64,000 nt of DNA, taken from positions 115,940,001-116,004,000 of the forward strand of contig OX597819.1 of the NCBI GenBank assembly GCA_951406725.2, given 5' to 3'. A program made the translations under genes and the position numbers. Position 1 is the stretch's first letter. Every line of letters starts with the position of its first letter. Positions 22,049 through 59,378 of this stretch are shown one piece after another. The notes under the pieces are model-generated. The model had not been told where the DNA came from. It made no database searches and worked only from the letters and a program-made list of their open reading frames with translations. Source of the DNA: Octopus vulgaris. Its lineage: Eukaryota.

Positions 22049-22628
22049 AGGCGGTGAGCTGGCAGAAACGTTAGCATGCCGGGCGAAATGCGTAACCGTA
22101 TTTCGTCTGCCGTTACGTTCTGAGTTCAAATTCCGCCGAGGTCGACTTTGCCTTTCATCCTTTCGGGGTCAATAAAGTAAGTACCAGTTACGTACTGGAT
22201 TCGATGTAATCGACTTAATCCCTTTGTCTGTCCTTGCTTGTCCTCTCTATGTTTGGCCCCTTGTGGGTAGTAAAGAAATAGGTATTTCGTGTCTTTAAGT
22301 TCTGAGTTCAAATTCCGCCGAGGTCGACTTTGCCTTTCATCCTTTCGAGGTCGATTAAATTAAGTACCAGTTACGCACTGGGGTCGATATAATCGACTTA
22401 ATCCGTTTCTCTGTCCTTGTTTGTCCTCTCTGTGTTTAGCCCCTTGTGGGTAGTAATGAAATAGGTATTTCGTCTGCCGGTTATGTTCTGAGTTCAAATT
22501 CCGCCGAGGTCGACTTTGCTTTTCAACCTTTCGGGGTCGGTAAATTAAGTACCAGTTGCGTACTGGGGTCGATCTAATCGACTGACACCCTGTCCCAAAT
22601 TTCGGGCCTTGGGCCAACAGTAGAAAAC
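22049..22628 (+). mobile_element. SINE family A tandem trimer inside a single 12-bp TSD
   Basis: Three successive GAGTTCAAATTCCGCCGAGGTCGACTTTGC units. TAACATGCCAGA at 22034-22045 and 22631-22642. Confidence 0.9.
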
Positions 22629-57808: not shown

Positions 57809-58329
57809 ATATATATATATGTTCATATCTCCCTGTTTGTGTGCATATTTTCACCTTACTCTCTCTTCCTTCTTCTTTCCTCCTCCCCTTCTTCTTCTCC
57901 TTCCTTATCTTCCTCTTACTTCCCCTCTTCTCCCTTCTTCCCCTAATCTCCCTCTTTCCCCCTCATTCCCCTCTCCCTCTTCTGCCTTTCCCCTCTGTCT
58001 CCCCCGTCTTCCCTCGCTTTGCCCCTCTCCCGTATTTTCCCCTTACACCCACCTACCCTCTCTGCCTTTTCCACCCTTCCTCCACTCCACTCCTACCCGT
58101 TGTCGCATTCCTCTCCTTCCCCCTCTCCTCCGTCCATCTTTACATATACATACTTATATGTGCACGCATGCGCAAGCACACACATGTACGCATAAGAAGT
58201 ACATTAAGACAATCAGAAGAAAGCGAGCAAGAAGGCGAACATGACATAAAACATATATGTGTATATATGTAACTATATATATATATATATGTGTGTGTGT
58301 TTATGTAAATATTCATATATGTATATATC

Positions 58330-58893
58330 CATCGATGGAGTAGTTTCTCCATGGCGCAAGCCTGGGCGGTAGAAACGAAGACACTGGGCTGCCCAGACAC
58401 CAGAATCTCCCTCTCGGCCCCCCAGACATAATCCAAAGGAATGCAGTGCAGTACGTTTGGAGTCTGGTTGGCTGCAGGAGTTGCCGGAAAGGGGTCGAGA
58501 TTCGACACCCTACCGCCTTCGGGGCTCCACTCCGGATTTTCTGTCTGGGTTTACTCCCATAGCCTTTCCCTCTCCCAAGAGCATCCGCAAGGCAGCGGAG
58601 CGAGGGTTTGGAGTCAGAGTTTTCCTTCTCCTAGATTGGCTGCCAACCAAGGCTAACGAGCCCAGTCTGCCCACCTGGTTATACCGCCAAGCACCCGGTC
58701 GCGCCACACAGCAGGCTCAGTGAGAACAGGGGGTACCGCGTGAAGGTGCTGCTGTGGACACAGTAGTGCAGGAGAGGCCATTAGCAAGAACTTTCCACAA
58801 GGCGCAGCCAAGTAGAAGTTCTGCAGCGATCATTACACCTGGAGAGGAGAGGCTATGAGTGACGCAATCACTTTCCTTTGCCCCCCAGTGATG
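58330..58893 (-). mobile_element. GC-rich non-coding element resembling an RTE-clade 5' UTR, between (TA)n tracts
   Basis: Minus strand contains GGTTGGCAGCCAATCTAGGAGAAGGAAAACTCTGA, a block I recall from RTE 5' UTRs. Markedly higher GC than the flanks, no credible ORF, HDV-like fold at the 5' end. Confidence 0.7.
58707..58886 (-). ncRNA. HDV-like (CPEB3-type) self-cleaving ribozyme with a long J1/2 insert
   Basis: P1 GGGGGGC(58886-58880)/ACCCCCU(58734-58728) with a G1.U wobble. P2 CACAGCAG/CUGCUGUG, 8 bp. P3 ACC/GGU closing L3 UUCACGC. J4/2 CUGA with candidate catalytic C at 58720. Confidence 0.72.
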
Positions 58894-58917
58894 TATATAT
58901 ATATATATATATATATA

Positions 58918-59082
58918 GGCGTAGGAGTGGCTGTGTGGTAAGTAGCTTGTTTAGCAACCACATGGTTCCGGGTTCAGTCCCACTGCGTGGCACCTTGGGC
59001 CAGTGTCTTCTACTATAGCCTCGGGCCTACAAAAGCCTTGTGAGTGGATTTGGTAGACGGAAACTGAAAGAAGCGTGTCGTA

Positions 59083-59152
<70 letters not shown>

Positions 59153-59378
59153 TGTGTGCGTTTGTGTGTCTATGTTTGTCCCCCTAGCATTGCTTGACGA
59201 CTGATGCTGGTGTGTTTATGTCCCCGTTACTTAGCGGTTCGGCAAAAGAGACCGATAGAATAAGTACTGGGCTTACAAAAGAATAAGTCCCGGGGTCGAG
59301 TTGCTCGATTAAAAAAAGGCGGTGCTCCAGCATGGCCGCAGTCAAATGACTGAAACAACTAAGAGAGAGAGAGAGAGT
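58918..59378 (+). mobile_element. SINE family B, full length (tRNA head, CORE-like segment, internal (TA)n(TG)n, tail)
   Basis: TGGCTGTGTGG A box, GGGTTCAGTCCC B box, CACCTTGGGC-AGTGTC, and tail CCAGCATGGCCGCAGTCAAATGACTGAAACAA. Confidence 0.92.

What the first reader, a model, noticed from the sequence alone, without database searches (positions are those of the whole stretch)
58707..58893. HDV/CPEB3-like ribozyme capping a non-coding RTE-like element
Seen: the minus strand has the helices of the HDV pseudoknot in the correct order. P1 is GGGGGGC/ACCCCCU with a G1.U wobble and one mismatch, P2 is a perfect 8 bp, P3 closes L3 UUCACGC, and J4/2 contains a C. The core (CCACAGCAGc-ACC-UUCACGC-GGU-ACCCCCU-GU...CUGCUG) resembles the mammalian CPEB3 ribozyme as I recall it, including a reduced P1.1. 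J1/2 is ~120 nt with its own hairpin (GCAGAACUU...AAGUUCUUGC), and P4 is almost absent. G1 lies 7 nt inside the (TA)n boundary. Established: HDV-like ribozymes process the 5' ends of R2, RTE and L1Tc transcripts. Inference: this is a ~560-bp ORF-less unit, either a non-autonomous ribozyme-headed family or a 3'-deleted LINE.
Basis: partly seen in the sequence, partly recalled or inferred. Interest (0 to 1): 0.75.

Follow-up and report, generated by a model that had tools for sequence, protein, structure and literature searches.

The report
Ribozyme-headed LINE with a decoy tail
This is the front 559 letters of a young jumping gene that begins exactly at a predicted self-cutting RNA fold, and about half of the family's copies that keep this front part stop at the same spot, likely because a hairpin there imitates the gene's true tail and starts the copying early.

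Summary
The HDV/CPEB3-like fold is real: one descriptor hit, G1 = 58886, none in 200 window shuffles. It heads a young, about 3,991-nt RTE-type LINE. 34 of 40 copies that reach the head start at G1-G3. Cleavage is untested. The window unit is the LINE's first 559 nt. It is neither a separate SINE family nor a later deletion. Of 56 copies holding the 5' UTR, 27 end at nt 553-563 with no LINE tail. Several have clean target-site duplications, some are also 5'-truncated, and they mix with full-length copies on the tree. That spot is the only internal one of 19 GAYGG sites that follows a hairpin, as at the true 3' end. The reverse transcriptase therefore likely starts there by mistake. The main rival is a short RNA with a free 3' end. 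Ribozyme-headed RTEs are known, and this scan found P4-less ones before in other genomes. I found no report of the fixed head-only class.

The parts
58880..58886 (-). P1 5' strand; G58886 is G1, the predicted cleavage product end and the element's 5' end
   Evidence: 25 of 40 head-reaching copies start here, 34 of 40 within 3 nt
58757..58879 (-). J1/2, 123 nt, with a long hairpin at 58824-58784
58748..58756 (-). P2 5' strand (8 bp) plus one C that could pair with G58716
   Evidence: P2 pair probability about 0.97 in nt 1-187
58735..58747 (-). P3 (3 bp) and L3 (7 nt, CPEB3-like)
58726..58734 (-). P1 3' strand and the G,U that give a one-pair P1.1
58717..58725 (-). 5-nt linker in place of P4, then J4/2 with the predicted catalytic C58720
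   Evidence: C unchanged in 33 of 33 copies (weak because copies are about 99% alike)
58707..58714 (-). P2 3' strand
58690..58696 (-). strand predicted to pair with the P2/P3 5' strand and unfold the core; 7 copies start just 3' of it (nt 198-204)
   Evidence: prediction without pseudoknots
58612..58669 (-). multi-hairpin motif of the RTE-type 5' UTR, also seen with other stems in unrelated fragments
58328..58354 (-). two-tier hairpin followed by GAYGG that resembles the LINE's true 3' end; 27 copies end here; also holds the start of a 24-codon upstream ORF (ATG at 58352)
58891..58900 (-). 5' copy of the probable target-site duplication (low complexity)
58319..58328 (-). 3' copy of the probable target-site duplication, overlapping the element's last base
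58328..58886 (-). whole unit: nt 1-559 of the 3,991-nt LINE, 1 difference from the full-length copy L031; no other piece of this LINE in the window

Best explanation
The unit is a head-only copy of a young RTE-type LINE: its 5' end is the first base of an HDV/CPEB3-like fold that is predicted to cut the element out of read-through RNA, and its 3' end lies at a hairpin in the 5' UTR where the element's reverse transcriptase likely started copying because the site imitates the true 3' tail. Shown: the fold, the 5' ends at G1, the full-length parent, the fixed 3' end at nt 553-563, target-site duplications, and repeated origin from two source lineages. Inferred: self-cleavage at G1 during transcription, binding of the element's protein to the 5' UTR hairpin, and target-primed reverse transcription starting just behind it. 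A protein bound at this part of the UTR would also explain why internal deletions and inversions break here.
For: 5' end: 34 of 40 head-reaching copies start at nt 1-3 with unrelated flanks, and none share upstream sequence. The descriptor hit is unique. Against the CPEB3 consensus, two of three P3 pairs and one P1 pair change on both sides. 3' end: 27 of 56 copies end at 553-563, and 14 of them at 559. All 32 head-only copies end in 528-642, where a uniform-start model with realistic processivity puts 8-9%. Five copies found later by a pattern at the site itself served as a fresh test: 4 of 5 end at 559-560 with 5' starts at 198, 292, 350 and 513, the usual picture of a priming site. Target-site duplications of 9 nt or more occur in 5 of 21 short copies against 4 of 420 mismatched flank pairs. 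Short reiterations of the last bases in several copies look like initiation slippage. Of 19 GAYGG sites in the element only nt 554 and the true end (3987) follow a hairpin. Both sites fold as a 3-bp outer stem over a 5-6-bp inner stem, and copies end right behind the outer stem. A sister family keeps the inner hairpin with changed pairs but lacks GAYGG, and 0 of its 30 copies are head-only at that site. All 6 internal deletions break at 551-655, and 3 of 4 inversions are second-primed at nt 207, 424 or 595. Stringent LINE proteins bind a 3' stem-loop (PMC4176376, abstract).
Against: Cleavage is not shown. Rfam finds nothing. Nested folding predicts three competitors: P1's 5' strand paired inside J1/2, a small hairpin taking G160 and J4/2, and, once nt 191-197 are present, a helix that replaces P2 and P3 (probability 0.97 in nt 1-260). 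J4/2 is C-U-G-A, not the C-R-R-A of PMC6326823. There is no covariation within the family and no lower mutation rate in the core (1.1% against 0.9-1.0%). Only 13 of 34 5'-complete copies pass the strict descriptor. Five of 25 G1 copies carry extra upstream G, as copies of capped RNA would. The mimic was defined after the fact: a hairpin plus GAYGG arises somewhere in 210 of 1000 shuffled elements, in 3 of 1000 with the upstream motif, and in 0 of 1000 at 545-565. The two loops differ, and loop identity matters in L2 elements (PMC4176376, abstract). Two short copies end in A-runs at nt 553 and 555, which fits free RNA ends. Short copies are somewhat clustered on the tree (6 of 500 shuffles as low).
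Confidence: 0.62

Rival explanations
1. The 3' end comes from a real short RNA. The ribozyme-cut 5' end is stable, and early termination, exonuclease trimming that halts at the hairpin, or decay linked to the upstream ORF leaves a 553-563-nt RNA that the LINE protein copies from its free end.
For: L016 has about 30 A after nt 553 and L021 has 5-7 A after nt 555, both at the base of the inner hairpin. The peak lies 18-28 nt behind the upstream ATG at nt 535. Internal deletions could be template jumps to such free ends.
Against: 25 of 27 copies have no A tail. The peak sits right behind the outer stem, in register with the true 3' end. The sister family has the inner hairpin but no peak. Downstream halves starting at nt 560 do not pile up, so a second cut site is not supported.
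Confidence: 0.22
2. The 5' end is set by an internal promoter with a capped start at G1, and the HDV-like fold is slow or dead (or both act, as in L1Tc). This concerns only the 5' end and can be combined with either account of the 3' end.
For: Predicted misfolds, no P4, a one-pair P1.1, and extra G upstream in 5 of 25 G1 copies.
Against: 20 of 25 G1 copies have no extra G. The start is exactly the G1.U wobble position of a complete fold. P4-less HDV-like ribozymes are active (PMC10879173, passages) and structured J1/2 domains can speed cleavage (PMC4908430, first quarter read).
Confidence: 0.2
3. The short copies are a separate non-autonomous family spreading from its own short source copy.
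For: Near-identical length; 16 of 22 short copies fall in one of the two sub-lineages. A short copy holds both a 5' cutter and a priming site, so second-round copying is possible.
Against: One clade is rejected (p-AU 0.00013). Both sub-lineages contain short and full-length copies, and the one well-supported branch joins a short copy with a full-length one. The 3' ends vary over 10 nt and no two copies share 3' flank.
Confidence: 0.06
4. Full-length insertions lost their last 3.4 kb later by DNA deletion, helped by the AT repeats and the palindrome at the break.
For: Many copies sit in (TA)n, where a duplication cannot be read; the break lies in a 10-bp palindrome.
Against: Unique target-site duplications abut the short form (L011, L014, L017, L020, L021). 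No remnants of the LINE tail remain. There are no breaks between nt 656 and the 3' end among these copies.
Confidence: 0.04

Closest known systems
HDV-like ribozymes at the 5' ends of RTE, R2, Ingi/L1Tc and related LINEs (Ruminski et al. 2011, not held; cited through PMC6765202 and PMC5786205)
   Same: Nested double-pseudoknot order, G1.U wobble, G1 at the element's 5' end, long J1/2 as in R2 and drz-Agam-2.
   Different: P4 is absent while J1/2 is 123 nt; P1.1 has one pair; activity is untested; no cephalopod case appeared in my searches.
Mammalian CPEB3 ribozyme (Rfam RF00622, consensus seen)
   Same: 24 of 33 core letters, with P3 and P1 changes on both sides; same G,U after P1.
   Different: CPEB3 is compact with a P4 and is a single-copy intronic motif; this one has a long J1/2, no P4, heads a mobile element, and does not match the Rfam model.
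Minimal P4-less HDV-like ribozymes (drz-Mtgn, theta; PMC10879173)
   Same: No P4; the catalytic C opens J4/2.
   Different: Those are about 50 nt with a short J1/2 and sit in phages and metagenomes.
Bipartite non-autonomous LINEs: R2 SIDEs, NARTc/RIME, Bov-A, RTESINE (PMC3414825, PMC5786205)
   Same: Short, ORF-less, ribozyme-headed derivatives of a LINE; the 6 internally deleted copies here are of this build.
   Different: They keep the LINE's 3' end and spread as lineages; the window copy has no 3' end and its class arises again and again.
Tailless retropseudogenes (PMC5322556)
   Same: 3'-truncated, flanked by target-site duplications, with defined end points, attributed to internal priming.
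   Different: Those are cellular RNAs copied by relaxed L1 at single-stranded A-rich sites; here a LINE's own 5' UTR is copied at a site shaped like its structured tail.

Membership tests
HDV-like ribozyme | Helix order P1-P2-P3-L3-P3'-P1'-J4/2-P2' | tested here: met
   single hit, 0 of 200 and 0 of 3000 shuffles
HDV-like ribozyme | G1-Y pair opening a 6-7-bp P1 | tested here: met
   G1.U plus five G-C pairs, C.A at position 7
HDV-like ribozyme | L3 with U...CG (reverse wobble) | tested here: met
   U143, C147, G148 (feature from PMC6326823 passages)
HDV-like ribozyme | P1.1 of two C-G pairs | tested here: inconclusive
   one C-G pair only, as in the CPEB3 consensus
HDV-like ribozyme | J4/2 with catalytic C (C-R-R-A in PMC6326823) | tested here: inconclusive
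   C-U-G-A: the C, third and fourth positions fit, the second is U; a competing hairpin is predicted
HDV-like ribozyme | Covariation of helices | tested here: inconclusive
   none within the family; three two-sided changes against the CPEB3 consensus
HDV-like ribozyme | Mg2+-dependent self-cleavage 5' of G1 | not testable with these tools
   indirect only: copy starts at G1
Rfam CPEB3_ribozyme RF00622 | Score over the gathering cut-off of 35 bits | tested here: not met
   the window locus is not among the 27 genome matches
RTE-clade LINE (parent element) | One long ORF with APE endonuclease then reverse transcriptase | tested here: met
   (Exo_endo_phos, RVT_1); the two copies read in full have frameshifts
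RTE-clade LINE (parent element) | Short 3' UTR, simple-repeat tail, short target-site duplications | tested here: met
   about 40-nt 3' UTR and variable purine-rich tails; features from PMC2887409 passages
RTE-clade LINE (parent element) | Reverse-transcriptase phylogeny within RTE | not tested
   no named reference set in hand; clade rests on architecture and recalled motifs
Bipartite non-autonomous LINE (SIDE, NARTc, Bov-A) | Keeps the parent's 3' end | tested here: not met
Bipartite non-autonomous LINE (SIDE, NARTc, Bov-A) | Spreads as its own lineage | tested here: not met
Tailless retropseudogene | 3'-truncated at defined positions with target-site duplications | tested here: met
Tailless retropseudogene | Cellular RNA copied by relaxed L1 with target complementarity | tested here: not met
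   template is the LINE's own UTR; overlap with the duplication is 0-3 nt

The most novel reading that the evidence does not exclude
RTE-type LINEs carry a second, tail-like binding site for their own protein in the 5' UTR. In this family it has become a working start site, so the first 559 nt form a complete mobile unit: ribozyme in front, decoy tail behind, no true 3' end needed. The same site would steer template jumps and second priming, and so explain why RTEs in particular give rise to bipartite mini-elements and SINE bodies.
Probability: 0.35. Interest if true: 0.75.

Novelty: new variant of a known kind. Interest (0 to 1): 0.52.

Why it matters
LINE copies are expected to lose their 5' ends and keep the tail. 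Here roughly one start in ten (27 against at least 262 true 3' ends) happens at one internal hairpin, which names a candidate minimal RNA signal for an RTE reverse transcriptase and makes it testable. PMC5786205 states that it is unknown why only a few LINE clades make internally deleted derivatives and why RTE 5' UTR pieces are conserved; a protein-binding site in the UTR would address both. RTE UTRs are in use as gene-insertion templates (PMC13708176, passages), where such a site would produce truncated inserts. The ribozyme adds a P4-less, long-J1/2, CPEB3-like member.

Tried and rejected
Rfam scans of the region, the unit and the 71-nt core gave no ribozyme match. A second ribozyme cutting at nt 560 was rejected: no pile-up of copies starting there. 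Splicing as the source of the internal deletions was rejected: the junctions show 0-6 nt of shared letters and no consistent donor/acceptor pair. Purifying selection in the core was not detectable. A degenerate core pattern found only this family in the genome plus one chance hit. In metagenomes it found 82 stretches, 80 examined: none matched the LINE, 10 had a paired P3, and one sequence seen twice (L266, L273) looks like a compact CPEB3-type fold. Sequencing runs: no RNA holder was listed. Contigs of four runs guessed to be RNA covered 27-30 of 30 bins but cannot show RNA ends; two of them hold the join of the internally deleted copy L320. RNA ends at G1 and at nt 553-563 therefore remain open. 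Whether this family is the brain-expressed RTE-2_OV could not be told: its sequence is not reported (PMC13282606), 4 of 12 supplementary files of PMC9115989 were not searched, and its stated ORF length and 3' UTR differ. L069 was dropped as a garbled duplicate of L008. ARAGORN found no tRNA. I did not search for a host gene.

Full report
Observation. Element position n equals window position 58887 minus n. P1 is nt 1-7 with 153-159, P2 is 131-138 with 173-180, P3 is 140-142 with 150-152, L3 is 143-149, and J4/2 is 167-170 with C167 = C58720. A descriptor of my own gave one hit in the window, at G58886, none in 200 window shuffles or 3000 shuffles of the 5' UTR, and none with a decoy base for the C. 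It was written with the sequence in view. Rfam gave no ribozyme match. Against the CPEB3 consensus printed, 24 of 33 core letters agree in my by-eye alignment. Two P3 pairs and one P1 pair differ on both sides.

The family. The genome is 2.8 Gb and looks octopus-like (recalled from its repeats; earlier scan notes say the same). It holds near-identical copies. Long copies run to 3,991 nt with an endonuclease and reverse transcriptase ORF, a short 3' UTR and variable purine-rich tails. RTE is assigned from this architecture and from recalled motifs, not from a tree. The window unit is nt 1-559, one base different from full-length L031, and no other piece of this LINE lies in the window. The true 3' end motif has 262 exact matches.

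Census. I mapped 56 copies holding part of the first 560 nt; L069 was dropped as a duplicate, and counts are lower bounds. Fifteen are long: 10 complete, 1 runs into a gap, 4 run to the end of the fetched DNA. Twenty-seven end at nt 553-563 with no LINE tail, 14 of them at 559. Five more head-only copies end at 528, 542, 583, 638 and 642. Six are internal deletions with 5' breaks at 551, 558, 582, 615, 645 and 655. Three are inversions with the inverted arm ending at 207, 424 or 595; a fourth inversion lies at 775-1187. A ribozyme-only query returned mostly the same loci, so the peak is not made by the 559-nt query.

The 5' end. Of 40 copies starting within nt 1-19, 25 start at G1, 7 at nt 2 and 2 at nt 3, each with its own flank. 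This is what cleavage of read-through RNA at G1 would give, as reviewed for R2, L1Tc and RTE (PMC6765202, passages; PMC5786205, parts 1-4 of 5). Against it: nested folding pairs the P1 5' strand inside J1/2 and ties J4/2 into a small hairpin. With nt 191-197 present, a helix with nt 137-143 replaces P2 and P3. Seven copies start at nt 198-204, just behind that helix, which fits a structure that stalls reverse transcription. The ribozyme would then have to cut during transcription. These folds omit pseudoknots. Five of the 25 G1 copies have extra upstream G, which leaves a capped start possible. The core shows no lower mutation rate, as expected for dead copies.

The 3' end. Short copies were inserted as such. 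Duplications of 9 nt or more flank 5 of 21 tested, against 4 of 420 mismatched flank pairs. Most others sit in (TA)n, and the window copy has only a low-complexity 10-nt duplication. On a tree of 40 of the first 51 copies (those with over 430 aligned nt; L206 left out for indels), the 22 copies breaking at 550-565, one of them an internal deletion, are rejected as one clade (p-AU 0.00013). They need 9 label changes, although they are somewhat clustered (6 of 500 shuffles as low) and most branches are unresolved. Under uniform internal starts with processivity fitted to the family, 8-9% of ends should fall in nt 528-655; 32 of 32 head-only ends do. Five further copies found by a pattern at the site gave a fresh test: four end at 559-560 with varied 5' starts and one is an internal deletion. 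A fixed 3' end with varied 5' ends is the mark of a priming site.

Why there. Of 19 GAYGG sites in the element, only nt 554 and the true end follow a hairpin. Both sites fold as a 3-bp outer stem over a 5-6-bp inner stem, and both are preceded by a similar short motif; copies end right behind the outer stem. In shuffles such a site arises somewhere in 210 of 1000 elements, with the upstream motif in 3 of 1000, and at 545-565 in 0 of 1000; the pattern was defined after the fact. A sister family keeps the inner hairpin with changed pairs in 27 of 30 copies but lacks GAYGG. None of its 30 copies is head-only there; one internal deletion breaks 14 nt behind it. These 30 were the best-scoring of 998 candidates. 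Stringent LINE proteins bind a 3' stem-loop and read the loop specifically (PMC4176376, abstract); the two loops here differ. Two copies end in A-runs, which keeps the short-RNA rival alive.

Comparison. Ribozyme-headed LINEs and their bipartite derivatives are known (PMC3414825, passages; PMC5786205). RTE copies are described as 5'-truncated (PMC2887409, passages). 3'-truncated copies with defined ends are known for cellular RNAs copied by L1 (PMC5322556, passages). I found no report of a LINE's own 5' UTR acting as a fixed alternative start, nor of this ribozyme in a cephalopod, in searches. A paper on internal initiation in a Penelope-like element (PMC11167929) was seen only as a listing. 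Ruminski 2011 and Webb 2009 were not held, and their supplements or Repbase entries may already list this ribozyme. The scan has noted P4-less ribozyme heads of RTE and Vingi elements in other genomes and nothing matching the head-only class.

Verdict. The fold is real and is a new member of a known kind. The unit is a head-only retrocopy, a new variant of known retrotransposition products. Its mechanism is inferred and can be tested directly.

Noticed in passing
L157-L171, about 1501-1583 in each: The Rfam CPEB3 model hits old degenerate repeats in this genome: L157 at 39.1 bits, over the cut-off of 35, and 14 more fetched at 28-34 bits. They look like two families of compact CPEB3-type folds with a P4. 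Downstream of L160 and L161 are broken frames that I recall as Vingi/Ingi-like endonuclease starts (untested).
   Followed up: partly
L127-L156, about 1501-1600 (sister RTE-type family, 998 candidates): It has a different head: 13 of 30 copies start at or within a few bases of a G that opens a perfect 7-bp helix with a G.U wobble, and 17 keep an AT-rich leader upstream. My HDV descriptor (3 copies tested) and Rfam (one copy) find nothing. It may be an odd ribozyme or a strong reverse-transcription stop.
   Followed up: partly
window 58690-58683 (element nt 197-204): A second cluster of 5' starts (7 copies) lies just behind a predicted helix that would unfold the ribozyme core.
   Followed up: partly
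window 58669-58612; L115, L117, L119, L121-L126: A multi-hairpin motif ahead of a fixed 20-letter word recurs in unrelated fragments with different but still pairing stems; a candidate conserved RNA structure of RTE-type 5' UTRs.
   Followed up: no
window 58352 onward; L031 1533-1607: A 24-codon upstream ORF starts inside the hairpin at nt 535; the sister family has CTG at the matching place.
   Followed up: no
L070, L079, L080, L102: Inverted copies of the twin-priming type; three skip 1.1-2.5 kb and carry an inverted arm from the 5' UTR.
   Followed up: partly
L068, about 40 nt before the element start: The first 20 or so bases of the element are repeated twice ahead of G1, as after repeated re-priming at the RNA's 5' end.
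   Followed up: no
window 58918-59360: A SINE-like repeat with a tRNA-like head on the plus strand (recalled; ARAGORN finds none) points away from the unit, so it cannot drive the ribozyme strand.
   Followed up: no
L266 and L273, about 1480-1580: The same compact CPEB3-like fold with a P4 appears in two metagenome contigs.
   Followed up: no
window 22098-22583: Tandem array of a 183-bp unit, 2.6 copies; similar sequence lies in L202.
   Followed up: no
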